Positions 22,874 through 38,171 of a stretch of DNA of 42,120 nucleotides are shown here, piece by piece. Source of the DNA: a virus. Lineage: Duplodnaviria; Heunggongvirae; Uroviricota; Caudoviricetes. Each line of letters begins with the position of its first letter. Within the stretch, counting starts at the first letter, position 1. The notes below the pieces were generated by a model. The model ran no database searches, was not told the DNA's origin, and saw only the letters and a program-made list of their open reading frames with translations. The stretch is taken from IMG/VR virus record IMGVR_UViG_2534681763_000019; one strand, 5' to 3'. A program made the position numbers and the translations under genes.

Positions 22874-23545
22874 TTAAAAACCAAGCTCATCTCTGATTCT
22901 TGGGAATTTTTTCATTACTCGAATATCAGTTAATAAATGCCAACGCCAAAAAACAGAAAATGGATATGATACATTACACATTGGCTTTAGCTTATTCTTG
23001 GCCTCTTGGATTTCTTGTTCTGTGCTTCGATCACTGACAAGTTTCATTCTCCAACCAGTAAAGTAAAACAATTCATCTTGTAACTTCTCTGAGAGATTTG
23101 CTCTTGTAATGCCCCTCAACCCCGTACTCGAAGAGTTAAAACACTTATCTAATAATTTGACTGTATTTAAAACCTTTCTACTTGGTCTTTTTCTTCTTGG
23201 GTATACTTGAACACCACTCGTTATAGCGTTCCCTGCGAGATGAACAATCTCACTGAAAACATCAACATCACTCTTTGTGCAATCAAGTAAGTTTTCAAAA
23301 GAATCACTTTTAATACTATTGCATCGACTGCAAGCTAAAAATAGATTGTTCCAATCATATTTGAGCTCATCAAGATCACGATGTGGAATAAAATGTTCTA
23401 TCTCTGGATCCATAAGATTACCTTGCTCACAGAGATAACATTTTCCATGAAATATTTCGTCTAAAGCATTTACAACTGTTTTATGGTTATATACTTTTCT
23501 CGACAAGCATTGAGGTGCAGGAATATTTCTAGTAACATTAAACAT
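22874..23545 (-). CDS. HNH endonuclease, Septu PtuB-like
   Basis: 223-aa ORF with HNH signature (HGKCYLCEQ...EIEHFIPH...WNNLFLACSRCNSIKSD); RBS aaagggaag; overlaps the upstream ATPase gene by 8 nt; very low GC. Confidence 0.7.
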   Translation of the reverse strand: MFNVTRNIPAPQCLSRKVYNHKTVVNALDEIFHGKCYLCEQGNLMDPEIEHFIPHRDLDELKYDWNNLFLACSRCNSIKSDSFENLLDCTKSDVDVFSEIVHLAGNAITSGVQVYPRRKRPSRKVLNTVKLLDKCFNSSSTGLRGITRANLSEKLQDELFYFTGWRMKLVSDRSTEQEIQEAKNKLKPMCNVSYPFSVFWRWHLLTDIRVMKKFPRIRDELGF

Positions 23546-24776
23546 CGTCTTCCCTTTCGCTATAATCTAAATATTTACTCTTAGCGATCATAAAAGCTGC
23601 TTTTGAACTTTTATCAAGAAAATCAATACTCTTCTGTAACGTTTTCATTATAGAATGAAATCTATCGTCGAAGACATTATTTTCTACTAAAGTCATTAAT
23701 TCTTTAACTAATGCATTTAGCTTATCCGAAGATACATCCTCACCCAACAATCCCTTTATAATTGCTGTGTAAGAATACAATGATAAATCACCCATCTGAT
23801 CCAATGTTGAGAGATTAAATATAATCGCATCAGATACTGATTGGATTACGAAAGGTGAATGCGTAGAAACAATAAATTGTATTTGCGGAAAAGATGATGA
23901 AAAAAAACTAAATACTTTCTTTTGCAATGTTACATGAAGATGAGCATCAATTTCATCAATAAGTACTATCCCTGTCATATCATGTTTTCTGATTTTATCA
24001 AGCTCTGCTTTTATCAATAAATCAGTATAAATAGAAAGAATTGATGAAAAACCAGATGACAACTTATCAAGTCCAAATGGTTCCTTATTATTTTGTAAAA
24101 GATAGATTTTCAACTTGTCGAGATCAAAATCCATTCTAATACTTTCATCTTCAAAAAGTTCTTTTAAGTCATCATTAATACTCTCAATAATATCAAAGGC
24201 TCTTTTATAGTCATCATCCTTGCCCACTCCCTTACTGACTAAAGCATAATTCCACAATGTAACTATGTATCTTTCAAAATACATACCAGCATCAATCTTA
24301 GAATTATTTCTCTGTGCGTTCCCATACTCAGTTAACAACAAATCGAGGCTGCTAATCTTACCATCATTTTTTATTTTCGCTTCTCGAATAGCAGGAAATA
24401 ATCTTATAATTGATTTTTTCTTTTTTGCAGCAACCCTGAAATCAACCACATCATTAAAAGTAATATCAAAGCTCTCAAATTCTTTTAATTTTTCTTTCAG
24501 TCTCTCAATTTCTTCGTTTAAATAGCTATAATTACCATCCCCTCTATTTGAATACTTTAAGTTTTCTTGACTGGAATTCAATTCCTTTTGTAGCTGCTCC
24601 TTAGTATAAGGATCATGTGAATTAATCGATTTTTCTATAAACTCATAAATATTCTCGATCAACCTAGTTTTACCAGAGCCATTATCTCCTGATATTATTA
24701 GATTCTTACCATCAAGATTTAATGTGTAAGGCTCATCGTTCCTTTTAAAGAAGATAGTTTCGATGAAATGTCGCAT
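23538..24776 (-). CDS. ABC-type (AAA_15/21-like) ATPase, Septu PtuA-like
   Basis: Walker A GDNGSGKT, signature-like LSSGFSS, Walker B IVLIDEIDAHLH, H-loop STHSP. Start placed at the second Met (GGAGG 4 nt upstream); the ORF track starts 15 nt earlier at 24791. Confidence 0.7.
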   Translation of the reverse strand: MRHFIETIFFKRNDEPYTLNLDGKNLIISGDNGSGKTRLIENIYEFIEKSINSHDPYTKEQLQKELNSSQENLKYSNRGDGNYSYLNEEIERLKEKLKEFESFDITFNDVVDFRVAAKKKKSIIRLFPAIREAKIKNDGKISSLDLLLTEYGNAQRNNSKIDAGMYFERYIVTLWNYALVSKGVGKDDDYKRAFDIIESINDDLKELFEDESIRMDFDLDKLKIYLLQNNKEPFGLDKLSSGFSSILSIYTDLLIKAELDKIRKHDMTGIVLIDEIDAHLHVTLQKKVFSFFSSSFPQIQFIVSTHSPFVIQSVSDAIIFNLSTLDQMGDLSLYSYTAIIKGLLGEDVSSDKLNALVKELMTLVENNVFDDRFHSIMKTLQKSIDFLDKSSKAAFMIAKSKYLDYSEREDDV

Positions 24777-24866
24777 TATTCCTCCCGTCATACTTAATAG
24801 CTTTTAGATAATATGACATTACATGTTAGATTTCATCCGTTTTGTGAACATATCCACTGCCGCGCG

Positions 24867-25228: not shown

Positions 25229-25882
25229 ATGAATAAATACAAACTTTTCGCACAGCTATCAAGATATTCATTTGAAGCGCAGATTGATGATTTCGAAAAA
25301 TATATCCTAGGAGCAGGCGGCCAAAACAGAGTTGACTTATCGGAATTAAAAAAAGCATATGAAGATGAAAAAAAGAATGCTCCTGACGATTATATTAATT
25401 ACTTAGAAGACTATTATTCAGAGCAATATGATTTCTTAGTTAACATACAACCAAATATTTTTAATAAATCTGCTTTGGTATCTTTATACTCATGCTTAGA
25501 GCACAACCTAAACGACTATTGCAATATATGTCAAAGGATTGTAAACACCAATATATCAGTAACCGATTTTAATGGTGATGGCATCCACAAAGCAAAAAGA
25601 TATTTAACAAAATTAATGGATATAAACTTTGGCCTGTCACAAGAGTGGCGATTCATGACAGAGTTTAACAAAGTAAGGAATTGCATAGTTCATGCTAATG
25701 GAGACATTAAAAAAATGAGCACAGCTGTAGCCTTAAAAGATATCATTGATAAAACACCTACTCTTTCATTAAACAATGAAAATAATATAATAATCTCCTT
25801 AAATTATTTAAAAGATACTATCACAAAAATTAGAAAACTCTTTCAATGGTTATATACACATCTGGATCAATCATCGAAATGA
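25229..25882 (+). CDS. Hypothetical protein with HEPN-like R-x4-H motif
   Basis: 217-aa ORF, very AT-rich, with C-terminal motif KVRNCIVHANGD (R-x4-H) typical of HEPN RNase domains; sits at the old/tin-equivalent position between cos and A. Confidence 0.55.
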   Translation: MNKYKLFAQLSRYSFEAQIDDFEKYILGAGGQNRVDLSELKKAYEDEKKNAPDDYINYLEDYYSEQYDFLVNIQPNIFNKSALVSLYSCLEHNLNDYCNICQRIVNTNISVTDFNGDGIHKAKRYLTKLMDINFGLSQEWRFMTEFNKVRNCIVHANGDIKKMSTAVALKDIIDKTPTLSLNNENNIIISLNYLKDTITKIRKLFQWLYTHLDQSSK

Positions 25883-26134: not shown

Positions 26135-27001
26135 TTAGATGGCTTTGCTTCGATATTCAATTTCTAAAATCGCCTTTGTCATTGCCGCAATAGTTATAGC
26201 TTCTACCATAGTCAATTCAGGCTTGTTCAAGCTTCCGTGTCCAGCAGTAGGTAATTTGTTACGTAAATCATAAATATCTTTAACAGCATCAATAAGATTC
26301 TTAGGTAATTTTGACATTTTTTCGAACTGTTTAAAAAAACCACCCAATGACTCATTTGCCACATTCGGGTTTTGAGTGATTTCCTTAGCCATAGTTTCTA
26401 AAACATTAGAGGCTGCGTGCAGTGCACCTGCCGGATCATTATTATCCAAGCAATTATTCATTCTATCTATTTGCTGAACGATATTTGGGTGCAATCTCTT
26501 TAAGTAATCACTAGCCAATTCTTCATTGAAATTTTTGACACTTTCAAAAACATCGCAATCTAAATAAAATTTAGGATTGACTGACATCCATGTATATTTC
26601 CAATCATTTTCTAAATTATCTTTTTCCGCAATACGCCTGCCAGTGTCCTGATCTATCTCATCAACATATTTACACATATAATCGGCGTAGTAGTGTAAAT
26701 ATCTAAATGATATTTCTGGGCAAAAATTACTAACTGATGCAAGGCCGCCATATTCTTTTGTAGTAACTGTAGGGACTTCTTCATCACATAAAGATGAGAA
26801 AGTGGTTCTTTCCCAAAATTCGCCCAACTCTTTTTCTTTCCTAGTTGCCATACCAGCTATCATATTGATGCTTGAGAGCAAAACTACACTCTGATAGTAT
26901 CGAGGACATCTGTATGAACTAGCATATGGGCATATTGATGATGCTTTACGATTAATACGCTCTTTTTCCCACCAATTTTTATCAGGAATAATTCTTTGCA
27001 T
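26135..27001 (-). CDS. Hypothetical protein (accessory cargo)
   Basis: 288-aa ORF, AT-rich, convergent with the HEPN-like gene, Cys/Tyr-rich N-terminus and helical C-terminus with LRNKLPTAGHGS; no family assignable by eye. Confidence 0.5.
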   Translation of the reverse strand: MQRIIPDKNWWEKERINRKASSICPYASSYRCPRYYQSVVLLSSINMIAGMATRKEKELGEFWERTTFSSLCDEEVPTVTTKEYGGLASVSNFCPEISFRYLHYYADYMCKYVDEIDQDTGRRIAEKDNLENDWKYTWMSVNPKFYLDCDVFESVKNFNEELASDYLKRLHPNIVQQIDRMNNCLDNNDPAGALHAASNVLETMAKEITQNPNVANESLGGFFKQFEKMSKLPKNLIDAVKDIYDLRNKLPTAGHGSLNKPELTMVEAITIAAMTKAILEIEYRSKAI

Positions 27002-27489
27002 AATTTAGCTACTATCTCACGAGTGAATGAATGTTTAGCCTTCTGCACAGTTTATCAGTTCCGGCATGCCTACTGCTACCCCACTGATTCAACTTCAAGT
27101 TATGAGTTAAAGCGATTCGGTTTCGCTAGATGACACACTAGTGTTAATTTATGGATAAAAATTTATCACTTAAAATTAACTAATGCCTGTTGCGACCAAA
27201 AGTGTGCTGGAATATTATTTTCGTCTGGCCTATTATCAAGCTAATTATCCAAATTAGAGTTACTCTCATTCATCAGCAACAAATAAATACACCTGTTCAC
27301 TTTCTCAAAGTGTTCCTGTTTTATTTTTAAAGCAAACAACGCCGCCTATTCGTCCGAATGTACAACAAACATCAGGTTCTGACACAAAGTGGACGATCAC
27401 TTATCAAAATGACCGCCCACCTTACACCTCATTTCACTCGTTGCCCAAACTCCCCCCAACAGGATAAATCCTCTTGGGGGCAACGTTTC

Positions 27490-27723
27490 TTAATGCAGCC
27501 AGCTGTCGTCTTCCCACACCTTCTGCATAATTTTCAGCACTTGTTTTCTTTCTTCGTCCAGTTGCAGTACGGTCAGTTCCACACCGTTAGAGCTACCTTT
27601 GCGGATACGAATTACCGTTTTGGGATACAGGGGGCGCAGATTGCGGTAAAGCTCGGATTCAAGGGCATCCAGGGTAGACTGGCTAATCTTCTGCTCTTTA
27701 TCGATCATTATTTCAATGCGCAT
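27490..27723 (-). CDS. DinI-like protein (Tum-region)
   Basis: Translation from the internal Met (MRIEIMIDKEQ...IMQKVWEDDSWL) follows the DinI pattern (MRIEV... ...ETWESADDWF); the ORF track's longer N-terminal extension was not used. Confidence 0.65.
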   Translation of the reverse strand: MRIEIMIDKEQKISQSTLDALESELYRNLRPLYPKTVIRIRKGSSNGVELTVLQLDEERKQVLKIMQKVWEDDSWLH

Positions 27724-27733
27724 AAAAGTCACC

Positions 27734-27922
27734 TCAGCTGATGACATCCATTGAGCGGTTGTATTCGTGGGTTCTGATTTTTGCCATGAGTTCATCAGTC
27801 AATTCAGAAACCCACTGCAGAGCCAGCCCCTTCTCTTCATCACTACACTCACTAGCCGCTACAAGCTTAAGAAAAAAATCAATGCGCTGGAGCTTCAAAG
27901 ACTCCAAAAAATAGTCCTGCAT
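27734..27922 (-). CDS. Small hypothetical protein, first gene of LexA-box operon
   Basis: 62-aa ORF from MQDYFLESL... with a strong RBS (AGGAGGAAAG) 4 nt upstream; the longer 96-aa ORF-track version would read through the LexA box. Confidence 0.5.
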   Translation of the reverse strand: MQDYFLESLKLQRIDFFLKLVAASECSDEEKGLALQWVSELTDELMAKIRTHEYNRSMDVIS

Positions 27923-27963
27923 CTTTCCTCCTATAACACCACGAGCAATACTGTATACATGAC

Positions 27964-27983
27964 CACTGTTTATATTTACAGTA
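27964..27983. promoter_or_regulatory. LexA (SOS) box CACTGTTTATATTTACAGTA
   Basis: CTGT-N8-ACAG with AT-rich spacer, 17/20 to consensus TACTGTATATATATACAGTA; overlapped by -10-like TATAAT/TATACT elements; a half-site (CTGTATACATGA) lies just upstream. Confidence 0.55.
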
Positions 27984-28075
27984 TATAATAATCTTACTGA
28001 TGTAAAACGTTTTTTTACGTTCATCAGCCTGATATGCCTGGTATTATTAAGAGCACGAATTGTTAATCCGCGTAA

Positions 28076-30514
28076 TTAATACAGGTTCCGCCACTTATCA
28101 TCTTCCTGTAAACGCTGATTCCGATAGAAGATACGCAGGCCAGCCCCTGACGGAATACTGCCTCCGCGAAGGAGTAAATCGACCTCTTTCTCGCTGCCAT
28201 CAAATCCTCTGGACTTCAGTTCATAGACGAGCTGCTGTCGCTGATGGTCTGTAATTCGCTGTTTGTAGTCTTTGCGCCGTTTCGGTTTCACCTGGCGTAA
28301 CCTTGCAGCCAGTTCCCGACGCTCTTTTTTGCTCATACTGTGCAGATAATCGTGCAACTCCTTGTCATCCTGGCGGGTAATGTCAGTTCTGGTGTCCCCA
28401 TCAGCTGATTTATCTTTCTCCTGTTGGTTCAAATTTTCAGCAAGGGGACAGTTATTGCCACGAGTCCGAGTCCGAGTCCGAGTCCGAGTCCAAGGGGCGC
28501 AAGCGCCCTTGTCGGCTGCCGCCTCCTGAACGTCAACGGCCTTACGAACCATTTTCCACTTCACTGCATGAGTGCAGATCTTGCCCTCTGCAATGGGTGA
28601 CCAGATGCCATAAATACGAATACCGTGATCGCCATAGGCGGTCGGCTCTTCGTTGATTTCATAAGCAGTTCTGATGAGGTGATATTTGCGGGGAACCAGT
28701 ACGCCGCCCTGCTTCATGATGTAGGTGGCAAAACAACCAGCATCAGCAGCAGCCAGGATTGCATCAAGGCGCGGGTTATCCAGTACCGGCGCACCTGCTT
28801 TTTTGTCCCCCTGCTGCCTTGCCGCCTGACCAGCCAGCAATCGCAGTTCACGGTAAGCCTGACGCCCCGGAATGCCAAAGAAGCGGAATTGCTGAACACG
28901 ATGCAGAGACGCCCAAGCATTAACGTATTCAGCGTTATCACGCAGGGATTTACCCGTTTCCTTGCTGATCTCGCCAGCCAGACCACGCCCGTCAATGTTC
29001 TTACTGATGTATTTCGCGATGTAGCTTGTTGGCGTACCTTTGCGCGGGTTTATCAGCTCGGACTTAAAGCGTGGTCCCGTGTTATTACCCAGCTCCTCGC
29101 GGTCTTCACGAATGGCAAACTTACGCAACAAAGCAGTAATGGCGCGGCGATCTTTTTTGCGCATAAAACACAACAGGTGCCAGTGAACTGTACCGTCGTG
29201 ATGCGGCTCAGCCACCCGCACGCCATACCAGCGCAACCCGGCTTTGTGCATCGCCTTACGAAATGCAGCAAACATACCGACCAGATAATCACTGCTTTGT
29301 CTTACCGTCGCATTTGTCCAGGTTGGGTTGGGCCTGCCGTTATTTAGCGTGGAATGGAAACGTGACGGACAGGTGATGGTGTAGAAAACGGCGCAGTCAC
29401 CGCGCATTTCCGCGATAAGCTCCAGACCTTTAACACAGGCCATCATCTCATTGCGGCGATGCGCAGGGTTGCTGCTGCTGGCGTTTACCACATCCTCCAT
29501 GTCCAGCGTGTCGCCGTCTTCGTTCACCAGTTCATGAGAACGGAAAAACTCCAGCGACTTACGGCGCTGCTCACGTTTATGCATCACGGCTTCATAGCTG
29601 ACATAAGGAGATGCTTTTTTGCTAACCAGGCAGACAGCGCGCAACTGCTCTTCCCGCCATTCGCAACGCATCTTCCATAATTTCCGATACCACCAGTCGG
29701 CGCACAACATACGCGCCAGCGAACCCGGAATGAGTTCATAGGGCACGGGTTTACGGCGGTTTCTTTTCCGACGGAGTTGCTCAAACGCAGGCGGGATAAC
29801 ATCCAGACGCAGGGTTTCCGCTGCCACCTTTTCCCACGTCTTGCGGATTTCTTCTGGCTTAACGTCATCGGTGGCATACAAATCACCACAAGCGGCATCA
29901 AGGCACATGCTCATATGCGCAGCAACAAGGGTAGACAGACGCTTCACCTGATCCTGACTCATTTCAGGCAGGATCAGCAGGCCGTCCAGCCCTTCATGGC
30001 TTGCCATAAAGCGAAAAGAAGTGGATAGCTGACAGTCGCGTACATGCTCCAGTCGTTCCAGACATGGCTTAATCGTCTCACGCAAATAGCGGGAATAAGC
30101 CTTTGGCCTGCCCAGGCTGCTGAAGTATTCAATACGTTGCATCAGCGGCTTGCTGATATGGGAAGGCTGGGCATTGACGTCCGCCAGAATGACCATATCT
30201 GGATTAAAACGCTGCTGCTCATGCGCCAGCTTTGCCCGGCTAATGAGTTTATCCTGCTCCATTTCGCGTTGGACAGGATCACGGGATTCATTAAAGAAAT
30301 AACGCTCCCAGACCTGATCACTCAGTGCCTCGCGGCGCAGTTGTTCCAGCTCGTTATCGACAGCGTACAGAGTGATCAGGTTTGAAAGCGCAGAAACCGG
30401 CGCAACTTCCGCCGGGTCCAGATAAGGGTTAATGGCCTTTTTCGGGCTGTTCCATGAGAATGCTGCGGCGACCTCGTTAAAGCCGCTGCAGTTGTTCATA
30501 TCAGCATGGCTCAT
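28076..30514 (-). CDS. A: Replication initiation protein A (rolling-circle nickase)
   Basis: 812-aa ORF with HUH-like motif (TVHWHLLCF); largest early gene, coupled to the upstream dam gene by 4-nt overlap. Confidence 0.85.
28461..28491. repeat. Hexanucleotide tandem repeat (CGAGTC)x5 inside gene A
   Basis: cgagtccgagtccgagtccgagtccgagtcc; encodes (TR)5 in the A protein and contains five tandem GAGTC pentamers. Confidence 0.9.
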
Positions 30515-33860: not shown

Positions 33861-34493
33861 ATGTTAAACATCAGAATGGGTTCCGATACGGGAGGTAAGG
33901 CAGCTATTGAGAGGCTGCTTGAGGCTTATGGATTCACAACTAAGCAGGCATTAAGCGAGCACCTGAATGTCTCAAAAAGTACTATGGCAAACAGAGTGTT
34001 ACGTGACAGTTTTCCTGCTGACTGGATAATTCAGTGTGCACTAGAAACCGGTGTTTCGTTACTTTGGTTAGCCACAGGACAGGGAAGCATGAAAGAAGGA
34101 TACGAGCCTGAGAAAAGATCTCATAACGAGAACAAACAAGCAATTAAACCGTTATCCAAACTCATAACTCCATCTATTCCTAAAGGAACCTTGGAAAATG
34201 GACAACTCAGTATTGATGAAGAGATTTTCCTAGACCACAGCATATTACCTGCAGATTATGAAGAATCGATGTTCTTAGAAACCCCTACTGATTGTTATCT
34301 CATCGATAAATCAGTTAAACAAGTCAGCAATGGATTCTGGCTTATCAATATTGATGGAATGATTATTATTGCAAAAATCATGCGGATTCCCGGCAATAAG
34401 ATTGTAGTAAATCAAGATGAAGCATCTTTCGAGTGCTCTGCTGATGATGTGGAAGTTATTGGGCGTGCAGTCAAAGTAATAAAGAGTATCTAA
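33861..34493 (+). CDS. cI: CI-like immunity repressor
   Basis: 210-aa ORF divergent from apl and directly upstream of int; N-terminal HTH-like segment (LSEHLNVSKSTMANRV). Confidence 0.7.
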   Translation: MLNIRMGSDTGGKAAIERLLEAYGFTTKQALSEHLNVSKSTMANRVLRDSFPADWIIQCALETGVSLLWLATGQGSMKEGYEPEKRSHNENKQAIKPLSKLITPSIPKGTLENGQLSIDEEIFLDHSILPADYEESMFLETPTDCYLIDKSVKQVSNGFWLINIDGMIIIAKIMRIPGNKIVVNQDEASFECSADDVEVIGRAVKVIKSI

Positions 34494-37754: not shown

Positions 37755-38171
37755 ATGGAAACCCTATTCAAAGTTTTTGAAAAATTTAGTTCCAGACCAC
37801 TTTTTTTTATTTTTTTCGGACTCTCACTTTGTGAATTTTTTCAGAAACAATCTGTTCTGATGAATCCATCAGCAGATAACATCGCGAAATTATTCGCAGC
37901 CATGATATTAGTTGTTTTTTTTACTTGGGGATTTGAATGGCTAATCTTCAAGTTCAATGTAAACCTTGAACCTCATGATCAAGGCGATATTGGACCAACA
38001 ATTGGAACGGCTACTTTAGCTGTATACTTAGTTTATGCCTTTCACTTTCTCAGTGAAAATCCTGAAGCATTAAATTTAAAGTTATTAACTAACTCTGGCT
38101 TTATATACAGCACAACTCTATTATTATTCTCATTAGAATGCATGAAGCTTAGAAGACTTAAACAAAAATAA
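37755..38171 (+). CDS. Small hydrophobic protein
   Basis: 138-aa AT-rich ORF with 3-4 hydrophobic helices, directly downstream of the integrase. Confidence 0.5.
   Translation: METLFKVFEKFSSRPLFFIFFGLSLCEFFQKQSVLMNPSADNIAKLFAAMILVVFFTWGFEWLIFKFNVNLEPHDQGDIGPTIGTATLAVYLVYAFHFLSENPEALNLKLLTNSGFIYSTTLLLFSLECMKLRRLKQK

What the first reader, a model, noticed from the sequence alone, without database searches (positions are those of the whole stretch)
27490..27990. LexA-box-controlled operon encoding a small protein and a DinI-like protein
A near-consensus SOS box (CACTGTTTATATTTACAGTA) overlaps promoter-like elements directly upstream of a 62-aa ORF with a strong RBS, followed by a DinI-like ORF. 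In 186-type phages SOS induction is mediated by a LexA-repressed antirepressor operon in this region, so this is the likely induction module. The DinI-like product could additionally modulate host RecA.
Basis: partly seen in the sequence, partly recalled or inferred. Interest (0 to 1): 0.4.

Follow-up and report, generated by a model that had tools for sequence, protein, structure and literature searches.

The report
Split Tum SOS induction module
This is the well-known DNA-damage "wake-up" switch of a P2/186-family prophage: a host-LexA-repressed promoter drives a small antirepressor gene (tumA) and a DinI-like gene (tumB), so the finding is correct but ordinary.

Summary
A LexA box (27964-27983) is unique in the window. 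It overlaps the -10 hexamer of a promoter laid out like phage 186 p95. The box sits just downstream of the gpA replicase gene. Behind it come a 62-codon ORF (27922-27734, Shine-Dalgarno AGGAGG) and a 77-codon DinI-family ORF (27723-27490).

The 62-aa protein is 98.4% identical to Fels-2 STM2728. It is a remote homologue of the N-terminal half of the 186 antirepressor Tum. The DinI-like protein matches Tum's C-terminal half at 40% identity. This is therefore the "split tum" (tumA/tumB) already described for PSP3 and Fels-2.

Primers published for the delta-tum mutant of the E. coli HS prophage DuoHS bracket exactly this 62-codon ORF. That mutant no longer lyses after mitomycin C. The element also carries a 186-type CI repressor, the presumed target. 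The module occurs in 1125 of 5426 complete E. coli genomes.

I add three things:
- A second, overlapping LexA box (27949-27968), colicin-style, conserved across relatives.
- The small ORF, not the DinI-like one, is the antirepressor.
- An identical TumA travels with many different CI repressors that share mainly their DNA-binding domain.

Verdict: interpretation supported, already known, low interest.

The parts
28001..28006 (-). -35 hexamer TTTACA of the SOS promoter (p95 analogue)
   Evidence: Read from the sequence. It lies 17 nt upstream of TACTGT, the same layout as the annotated 186 p95. Not flagged by the generic scan.
27978..27983 (-). -10 hexamer TACTGT, identical to the 186 p95 -10 and forming the left half-site of LexA box 1
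27964..27983 (.). LexA box 1 (minus strand TACTGTAAATATAAACAGTG)
   Evidence: Unique consensus match, 0/100 shuffles. 23.2 bits, the top score in the window. Present at -61 from the start codon in 78 of 79 IMG/VR loci scanned and in Fels-2, SopEPhi, ST437phi4.1 and MLG42.
27949..27968 (.). LexA box 2 (minus strand CAGTGGTCATGTATACAGTA), offset 15 nt and sharing 5 nt with box 1; colicin-type double operator
   Evidence: 12.8-15.2 bits. Only 4 of 42101 window positions reach 12 bits. Box 2 of Fels-2 is identical to the colE1 box 2 sequence that I entered from memory. It is kept, and stronger (16.7-19.9 bits), in SopEPhi, ST437phi4.1 and MLG42, whose flanks have diverged. Present at -46 in 78 of 79 IMG/VR loci scanned.
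27927..27932 (-). Shine-Dalgarno AGGAGG of tumA
   Evidence: Sequence; 4 nt before the ATG; conserved in relatives.
27734..27922 (-). tumA: 62-aa antirepressor (homologue of the N-terminal half of 186 Tum)
   Evidence: phrog_698 E 3.6e-38. 186 Tum residues 7-44 hit the same PHROG (2.4e-5), and both proteins hit phrog_8554 and phrog_1993. hhalign aligns residues 3-43 to 3-43 at E 6e-5. 98.4% identical to Fels-2 STM2728. The DuoHS delta-tum primers bracket it. AF2 predicts a helical hairpin, pLDDT 91.5.
27730..27735 (-). Shine-Dalgarno GAGGTG of tumB, overlapping the tumA stop codon (10-nt intergenic gap)
   Evidence: Sequence; conserved in relatives.
27490..27723 (-). tumB: 77-aa DinI-family protein (homologue of the C-terminal half of 186 Tum)
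   Evidence: Pfam PF06183 E 1.9e-20. 40% identity to Tum 71-145. phrog_189. PDB DinI 1ghh/7ywa E 1.5e-5. NCBIfam DinI equivalog 41.3 bits against a cut-off of 111, so it is a paralogue.
27439..27485 (-). Stem-loop just after tumB; candidate, weak terminator (position analogous to 186 t95a)
   Evidence: -23.2 kcal/mol, z -3.0. It has no clear U-run. Similarity to relatives ends at the tumB stop codon.
27996..28028 (-). Imperfect palindrome between the gpA stop and the operator, overlapping the -35; possibly a terminator that insulates the SOS promoter from early lytic read-through
   Evidence: -12 kcal/mol, z -3.3. Kept in close relatives only. Gifsy SOS loci are likewise preceded by terminator-like palindromes (PMC3121763).
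33861..34493 (+). 186-type CI immunity repressor, the presumed target of TumA
   Evidence: Pfam Phage_CI_repr 1.7e-30 and Phage_CI_C 7.2e-31. 32% identical to 186 CI over the full length. 96.7% identical to Salmonella phage RE2010 CI.
28076..30514 (-). gpA-like replication endonuclease directly upstream (context that fixes the synteny with 186/PSP3/Fels-2)

Best explanation
This is the SOS induction operon of a Fels-2/186-type P2-like prophage, in the split tumA-tumB form.

In the lysogen, host LexA occupies two overlapping boxes. These cover the -10 hexamer and the start of the transcript, so the promoter is shut. DNA damage activates RecA, LexA cleaves itself, and the promoter fires. The 62-aa helical-hairpin protein TumA then binds the prophage's 186-type CI repressor and keeps it off its operators, so the lytic promoter is released. 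TumA probably binds CI's N-terminal DNA-binding domain. The co-transcribed DinI-like TumB probably binds RecA filaments and tunes how long or how strongly the SOS signal lasts. The double box probably sets a high damage threshold, as it does in colicin operons.

Shown here: the sequence features, the homologies, the synteny and their conservation. [quoted passage not shown] Inferred: actual LexA occupancy, cooperativity between the two boxes, TumA's contact surface on CI, and TumB's effect on RecA.
For: - LexA box 1 is unique in the window and scores high.
- Box 2 lies at a 15-nt offset and is conserved in diverged relatives and in 78 of 79 IMG/VR loci scanned.
- The promoter layout equals 186 p95, and the locus sits after gene A as in 186, PSP3 and Fels-2.
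- TumA is homologous to the Tum N-terminal half. TumB is 40% identical to the Tum C-terminal half and belongs to Pfam DinI.
- TumA is 98.4% identical to Fels-2 STM2728.
- PSP3 tumA is annotated 'UV induction of prophage'. PMC3121763 states that the upstream half carries the antirepressor activity.
- The DuoHS delta-tum primers match the borders of the 62-codon ORF. Both delta-tum and lexA(Ind-) block mitomycin C induced lysis.
- A 186-type CI and CII are present in the same element.
- ESSI-2-type phages keep a TumA-like gene with a LexA box but have no DinI gene, so TumA looks like the core part.
- Both ORFs are under purifying selection.
- CI NTD identity stays at 66% or more wherever TumA is identical, while the CTD falls to about 30%.
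Against: - Nothing was measured on this sequence: no LexA binding, no transcript, no TumA-CI binding.
- TumA-to-186 Tum homology is remote (20% identity, hhalign probability 65%, BLASTP finds nothing). It is weak to PSP3 TumA (E 0.017).
- The PSP3 activity assignment is a personal communication cited second hand.
- In what I read of the DuoHS paper I did not check for complementation of delta-tum, and I cannot exclude an effect of the deletion on tumB translation.
- The generic promoter scan did not call the promoter, whose -10 matches only 3 of 6.
- Box 2 is weaker in this window (12.8 bits) than in most relatives.
- The link between TumA and the CI NTD rests on related genomes and may simply reflect mosaic recombination.
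Confidence: 0.9

Rival explanations
1. The DinI-like protein (TumB) is the component that triggers induction, for example by acting on RecA or on CI, and the 62-aa protein is only an accessory.
For: In 186 the DinI-like part belongs to the single Tum polypeptide and is also made separately from an internal GTG start. RefSeq and phage records name only the DinI-like gene and leave the small ORF as 'hypothetical'.
Against: The DuoHS delta-tum deletion removes only the 62 codons, leaves the tumB ribosome-binding site and ORF intact, and abolishes induction. PSP3 tumA is annotated for UV induction, and the literature assigns activity to the upstream half. ESSI-2-type phages have the LexA-controlled TumA-like gene but no DinI gene. 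Non-polar dinI deletions in Gifsy prophages did not change induction (PMC3121763).
Confidence: 0.05
2. The operon is SOS-regulated but serves the host as a 'moron' (tuning of SOS or mutagenesis by a DinI paralogue) rather than prophage induction. This particular prophage would then be induced otherwise, or not at all.
For: Chromosomal DinI is itself an SOS gene (own knowledge). The operon borders the variable cargo region that carries defence genes. Inducibility of this exact prophage was not tested.
Against: The module sits at the same place in 186, PSP3, Fels-2 and DuoHS, all reported as SOS-inducible through it. A full 186-type CI/CII switch is present. 186-type CI depends on an antirepressor rather than on RecA-stimulated cleavage, a point I hold from my own knowledge. 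In what I read, PMC3121763 showed non-cleavage for the Gifsy repressors and described Tum as acting by binding its repressor.
Confidence: 0.04
3. The LexA-like palindrome is a chance match in AT-rich intergenic DNA, and the two small ORFs are expressed constitutively or by read-through from gene A.
For: The -10 is weak and the generic scan found no promoter.
Against: 0 of 100 shuffles gave a match. It is the top PWM score in 42 kb, with a second site at the exact colicin-type offset. Both boxes are retained in relatives whose surrounding intergenic sequence has diverged. The layout is identical to the annotated LexA site of 186 p95.
Confidence: 0.01

Closest known systems
tumA/tumB of Salmonella phage PSP3 and STM2728/STM2726.1 of Fels-2 (split tum); 'tum' of the E. 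coli HS prophage DuoHS
   Same: A two-gene operon directly after gene A: a small antirepressor ORF followed by a DinI-like ORF, under LexA control. TumA is 98.4% identical to Fels-2 STM2728. The double LexA box and ribosome-binding sites are shared with Fels-2. The DuoHS deletion primers match the window.
   Different: Essentially nothing relative to Fels-2 or DuoHS, except a different CI (73% NTD and 65% CTD identity to Fels-2 CI) and a slightly weaker box 2. Relative to PSP3, TumA is only marginally similar and PSP3 has a single box.
Phage 186 SOS operon (p95-tum-orf97) and the Tum antirepressor
   Same: Position after gene A. The LexA box begins at the -10 hexamer TACTGT. The N-terminal Tum domain and the DinI-like domain appear in the same order. 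The DinI-like part has its own ribosome-binding site and start in both. CI, CII, Fil and the integrase region are of the 186 type.
   Different: 186 fuses the two halves into one 146-aa protein and also makes a truncated DinI-like product. 186 has one near-perfect box (27.5 bits) instead of two overlapping ones. 186 continues with orf97, whereas here unrelated cargo follows. The Tum N-domain is only about 20% identical.
Colicin operon operators (two overlapping SOS boxes)
   Same: Two 20-bp LexA boxes sharing about 5 bp. Box 2 begins CAGTGG and ends ACAGTA. Box 2 of Fels-2 is identical to the colE1 box 2 sequence that I entered from memory. PMC2994835 describes such double boxes as binding two LexA dimers and giving very tight repression, with no detectable basal expression.
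   Different: Here the operator controls a prophage antirepressor, not a toxin/lysis operon. Cooperative LexA binding has not been shown here.
Gifsy-1/2/3 LexA-controlled dinI-antirepressor-irsA operons (GfoA, GftA)
   Same: A LexA box, a DinI paralogue and a small antirepressor in one operon. The repressor is not cleaved, and induction works by sequestration (PMC3121763).
   Different: The gene order is reversed (dinI first). These are lambdoid phages with different repressors. Homology between TumA and GfoA/GftA was not tested.
Chromosomal E. coli DinI
   Same: Same Pfam family. Aligns over the whole length with PDB 1ghh/7ywa (E 1.5e-5), including the C-terminal W-E-D-D-x-W helix end.
   Different: Scores far below the NCBIfam equivalog cut-off (41.3 against 111 bits). 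By my own reading of the alignment, the C-terminal helix carries more lysines than DinI's. Any effect on RecA is untested.

Membership tests
186-type SOS induction operon (tum; split tumA/tumB form) | LexA operator overlapping the promoter of the operon | tested here: met
   Box 1 scores 23.2 bits and is unique in the window. It starts at the -10 hexamer, as in the annotated 186 p95.
186-type SOS induction operon (tum; split tumA/tumB form) | Location immediately downstream of, and co-oriented with, the gpA replication gene | tested here: met
   gpA lies at 28076-30514(-) and tumA starts at 27922(-). The order is the same in 186, PSP3, Fels-2 and 813R9.
186-type SOS induction operon (tum; split tumA/tumB form) | Product homologous to the N-terminal (antirepressor) half of Tum | tested here: met
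   Cross-hits to PHROGs 698, 8554 and 1993. hhalign E 6e-5 over residues 3-43. 98.4% identical to Fels-2 STM2728. BLASTP alone finds nothing.
186-type SOS induction operon (tum; split tumA/tumB form) | DinI-like C-terminal half or second gene | tested here: met
   Pfam DinI E 1.9e-20. 40% identity to Tum 71-145.
186-type SOS induction operon (tum; split tumA/tumB form) | Cognate 186-type CI repressor in the same element | tested here: met
   CI at 33861-34493(+) has Phage_CI_repr and Phage_CI_C domains and is 32% identical to 186 CI. CII is 68% identical to 186 CII.
186-type SOS induction operon (tum; split tumA/tumB form) | Antirepressor activity: binds CI and prevents operator binding; needed for SOS induction | not testable with these tools
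   Literature only: 186 Tum (cited in PMC3121763 and PMC7708051) and the orthologue deletion in E. coli HS.
186-type SOS induction operon (tum; split tumA/tumB form) | LexA binding and SOS-dependent transcription | not testable with these tools
   Requires a gel shift or footprint and a reporter or RNA assay.
DinI family (PF06183) | Sequence match above the Pfam gathering score | tested here: met
   73.4 bits against a cut-off of 24.2.
DinI proper (NCBIfam NF007893 equivalog) | Score above the equivalog cut-off | tested here: not met
   41.3 bits against a cut-off of 111. It is a phage paralogue, not the chromosomal DinI.
DinI family (PF06183) | Binding to RecA filaments and modulation of co-protease activity | not testable with these tools
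   Inferred from family membership only.
Colicin-type double SOS operator | Two LexA boxes overlapping by a few base pairs | tested here: met
   Boxes at 27964-27983 and 27949-27968 share 5 bp. The arrangement is conserved in relatives.
Colicin-type double SOS operator | Binding of two LexA dimers, giving tight and delayed expression | not testable with these tools
   Known for colicins (PMC2994835). Not measured for this promoter.

The most novel reading that the evidence does not exclude
TumA may be a broad-specificity antirepressor. The identical 62-aa protein occurs with at least 20 different CI repressors whose C-terminal domains are only 31-69% identical, while their N-terminal DNA-binding domains stay 66-83% identical. 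It may therefore recognise a conserved surface of the CI DNA-binding domain. If so, one SOS-induced P2-like prophage could induce co-resident heteroimmune relatives in trans; some E. coli genomes carry up to 3 copies of the module. The colicin-type double LexA operator would set a high damage threshold for that shared decision.
Probability: 0.3. Interest if true: 0.4.

Novelty: already known. Interest (0 to 1): 0.15.

Why it matters
The finding tells us how this prophage, which also carries a Septu defence system, is woken by DNA damage. It also gives the correct name to a gene that RefSeq still labels 'hypothetical protein' in roughly a fifth of complete E. coli genomes, including BL21(DE3) derivatives and E2348/69.

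For annotation, the useful points are these:
- The 62-codon ORF is tumA, the antirepressor.
- The longer 96-codon reading that some records annotate starts upstream of the SOS promoter, so the SOS transcript cannot encode it.
- The operator is a double LexA box.

Beyond that, the finding confirms textbook 186/Fels-2 biology and opens no new question. The only lead is the possible promiscuity of TumA towards different CI repressors.

Tried and rejected
- BLASTP of the 62-aa protein against 186 Tum found nothing. Homology appeared only with profiles.
- Pfam and NCBIfam have no family for TumA, and PDB sequence search found nothing.
- Foldseek of the AF2 helical-hairpin model against BFVD gave no hit at E <= 0.001 (best 0.43). 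The fold is too generic to be informative.
- The generic promoter and terminator scan found no promoter at the operator. It found only a weak terminator-like hairpin spanning the tumA/tumB junction, whose stability is no better than shuffled sequence (z -0.38). I rejected it as a terminator.
- The 96-codon (ATG 28024) and 101-codon (ATG 27795) extensions listed by the ORF finder were rejected. They start upstream of the promoter or inside tumA, lack a ribosome-binding site, and add nothing to the Pfam match.
- The plus-strand antisense ORFs (127, 73 and 57 aa) have no PHROG match, and the region has no Rfam match.
- Bunny, Liu and Roth 2002 (PMC151935), the primary source for the Fels-2 split tum, is not held in the library.
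- A literature search for 'TumA/TumB' returned only unrelated papers.
- The palindrome upstream of the -35 is not conserved in diverged relatives, so I assign it no firm role.
- I did not run the large protein-database searches, because the identification was already unambiguous.

Full report
**What is in the sequence**

All functional features of the finding lie on the minus strand. The gpA-like replication endonuclease gene ends at 28076 (ORF 30514..28076). About 50 nt downstream lies an imperfect palindrome (28028-27996; -12 kcal/mol, z -3.3). After that the order is as follows:

| Feature | Coordinates (minus strand) |
|---|---|
| -35 hexamer TTTACA | 28006-28001 |
| Spacer | 17 nt |
| -10 hexamer TACTGT | 27983-27978 |
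| Shine-Dalgarno AGGAGG | 27932-27927 |
| 62-codon ORF | 27922-27734 |
| Gap with GAGGTG overlapping the stop codon | 10 nt |
| 77-codon ORF | 27723-27490 |

A stem-loop without a clear U-tract follows at 27485-27439 (-23.2 kcal/mol, z -3.0).

**The LexA operator**

It is the only match in the window to the LexA consensus with up to 3 mismatches, and none of 100 shuffles gave a match. I built a symmetrised weight matrix from 17-19 E. coli LexA sites recalled from memory, so the matrix itself is my own knowledge, not a curated resource. With it the site scores 23.2-23.9 bits, the best in the 42 kb and in the upper half of the training sites.

A second site, CAGTGGTCATGTATACAGTA (27968-27949 on the minus strand), starts 15 nt downstream and shares 5 nt with the first. 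It scores 12.8-15.2 bits, and only 4 of 42101 window positions reach 12 bits.

The pair is conserved.
- Fels-2, 813R9 and 500465-1 have it.
- SopEPhi, Klebsiella phage ST437-OXA245phi4.1 and Yersinia phage MLG42 also have it. Their surrounding intergenic DNA has diverged, yet box 2 is stronger there (16.7-19.9 bits).
- Of the 80 IMG/VR loci with an identical TumA, 79 could be scanned, and 78 of them carry both boxes at -61 and -46. Most of the variation sits in the centre of box 2.
- Phages 186, PSP3, ESSI-2 and ESSI2_ev015 have a single, stronger box (22.7-28.8 bits).

Box 2 of Fels-2 is identical to the colE1 box 2 sequence that I entered from memory. [quoted passage not shown] These bind two LexA dimers and give very tight repression with no detectable basal expression (PMC2994835).

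The generic promoter scan did not call a promoter here. However, the -10 TACTGT, which doubles as the first half-site of the LexA box, together with a TTxACA -35, is exactly the layout annotated for the 186 p95 promoter.

**The two proteins**

The 77-aa product is a DinI-family protein.
- Pfam PF06183: E 1.9e-20, 73.4 bits against a cut-off of 24.2.
- PDB DinI 1ghh/7ywa: E 1.5e-5.
- 40% identical to residues 71-145 of 186 Tum.
- It scores far below the NCBIfam equivalog cut-off for chromosomal DinI (41.3 against 111 bits). It is therefore a phage paralogue.

The 62-aa product has no Pfam, NCBIfam or PDB match and no BLASTP hit to 186 Tum. Profiles do link it to the Tum N-terminal half.
- It matches phrog_698 at E 3.6e-38, and Tum residues 7-44 match the same profile positions at 2.4e-5.
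- Both proteins hit phrog_8554 (2.4e-8 and 1.4e-11) and phrog_1993 (0.0022 and 1e-22).
- hhalign of a six-member TumA alignment against Tum aligns residues 3-43 with 3-43 at E 6e-5.
- AlphaFold2 predicts a helical hairpin (helices 2-23 and 28-61, pLDDT 91.5).
- Substitution patterns against three diverged relatives show purifying selection on both ORFs.
- The plus-strand ORFs have no family match, and there is no Rfam match.

**What it is**

In 186 the two halves form one 146-aa antirepressor, Tum. The DinI-like half is also translated separately from an internal start.

The PSP3 record annotates two genes: tumA ('similar to 5' end 186 tum; UV induction of prophage') and tumB ('similar to dinI and 3' end of 186 tum'). 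Lemire et al. 2011 state that Fels-2 and PSP3 have tum split by a stop codon, and that in PSP3 the upstream gene carries the antirepressor activity (PMC3121763).

The window's TumA differs from Fels-2 STM2728 by one residue and is identical to that of many Klebsiella and E. coli P2-like phages.

The most direct evidence comes from the Phollow study of the E. coli HS prophage DuoHS. Its delta-tum construct fuses the start and stop codons using primers whose sequences match window 27920-27942 (1 mismatch) and 27714-27736 (exact). The deletion is therefore the orthologue of the 62-codon ORF alone, and it leaves the tumB ribosome-binding site and gene in place. Both that mutant and a lexA(Ind-) strain fail to lyse after mitomycin C.

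The same element in the window carries a 186-type switch.
- CI with Phage_CI_repr and Phage_CI_C domains, 32% identical to 186 CI.
- CII 68% identical to 186 CII.
- A Fil-like gene and an integrase.

ESSI-2-type phages have a LexA-controlled TumA-like gene and no DinI gene. This argues that TumA is the core component.

**Mechanism**

LexA occupies both boxes, which cover the -10 hexamer and the first 20 or so transcribed bases, and blocks RNA polymerase. SOS-induced self-cleavage of LexA frees the promoter. TumA sequesters CI, as shown for 186 Tum in work cited in PMC3121763 and PMC7708051, and the lytic promoter fires. TumB presumably acts on RecA filaments like DinI and modulates the signal. 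This last point is inferred from family membership and from the 186 record's note 'modulates SOS induction'.

The steps from LexA occupancy onward are inferred for this sequence. They rest on orthology to experimentally studied systems.

**An additional observation**

TumA is far more conserved than its presumed target. In a ten-phage alignment, phages with 84-100% identical TumA have CI N-terminal domains 68-100% identical to the window's, while C-terminal domains fall to 28%. Phages 186 and PSP3, which have a different Tum N-domain, have CI N-terminal domains only 39-48% identical.

At least 558 IMG/VR loci encode TumA relatives. The best 80 all have a 100% identical TumA. In the 70 of these where CI was found, CI falls into more than 20 identity classes, with the NTD at 66-100% (median 74%) and the CTD at 31-100% (median 38%). 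This fits TumA contacting the DNA-binding domain and perhaps acting on several heteroimmune repressors. The genomes are related and mosaic, however, so this is a lead and not a result.

**Frequency and annotation**

The module is present in 1125 of 5426 complete E. coli genomes, with up to 3 copies per genome. These include BL21(DE3) derivatives and E2348/69. It is always annotated 'DinI-like family protein | hypothetical protein | replication endonuclease'.

Similarity to relatives stops at the tumB stop codon. Downstream lies low-GC cargo that includes a Septu defence system.

**Verdict**

The module is already known (186 tum; PSP3 and Fels-2 tumA/tumB; DuoHS tum), so interest is low. The refinements are the double, colicin-type LexA operator, the assignment of antirepressor function to the small ORF, and the uncoupling of TumA from CI diversity.

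Noticed in passing
window 22874-24791 (minus strand): A Septu anti-phage system sits in low-GC (about 33%) cargo between the portal gene Q and tumB. PtuA is 417 aa (PADLOC PDLC00268, E 7e-122). PtuB is 223 aa with an HNH domain (PDLC00331, E 2e-82). Similarity to relatives ends at the tumB stop codon, so this is the variable cargo locus of P2-like phages.
   Followed up: partly
window 25229-25882 (+) and 26135-27001 (-): Two further low-GC cargo ORFs with only faint hits. The 217-aa ORF has a weak HEPN-like match (PADLOC RTasHEPN, 5e-5). The 288-aa ORF has a weak Abi_C match (Pfam, 0.0017, below cut-off). The 288-aa gene is co-oriented with the SOS operon, about 490 nt downstream of tumB, and a promoter-like site lies at 27239-27211. 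Read-through from the SOS promoter cannot be excluded.
   Followed up: partly
window 28461-28491: A perfect hexanucleotide repeat (CGAGTC x5.2) lies inside the gpA replicase gene and encodes [10 protein letters not shown]. 813R9, Fels-2, SopEPhi, ST437phi4.1 and MLG42 have a single TR at this position, so this is an in-frame microsatellite expansion particular to this prophage.
   Followed up: partly
window 38093-38112: A moderate LexA-like site (CTCTGGCTTTATATACAGCA, 15.8 bits) lies outside the prophage, inside the 3' end of a 138-codon ORF in another low-GC stretch. It was not examined further.
   Followed up: no
L010 (Escherichia phage ESSI2_ev015) 1201-1413 and L011 (Cronobacter phage ESSI-2) about 1201-1425: These P2-like phages carry a longer TumA-like ORF (70-74 aa, 41-49% identical) behind a single strong LexA box and have no DinI-like gene. 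In the ESSI-2 record the ORF is not annotated at all.
   Followed up: partly
L006 (Escherichia phage 500465-1) 1201-1731: tumA shows a short stretch of altered residues (…ERGWLCSGV…) consistent with a compensated frameshift. tumB has a 1-nt deletion after codon 4 that creates an early stop. The module may be decaying in that phage.
   Followed up: no
E. coli genome collection: The tumA orthologue is annotated 'hypothetical protein' in every listed RefSeq E. coli genome. Some phage records call it 'levan regulatory domain protein' or annotate a 96-codon version that starts upstream of the SOS promoter. This is a systematic annotation gap for an experimentally supported gene.
   Followed up: partly
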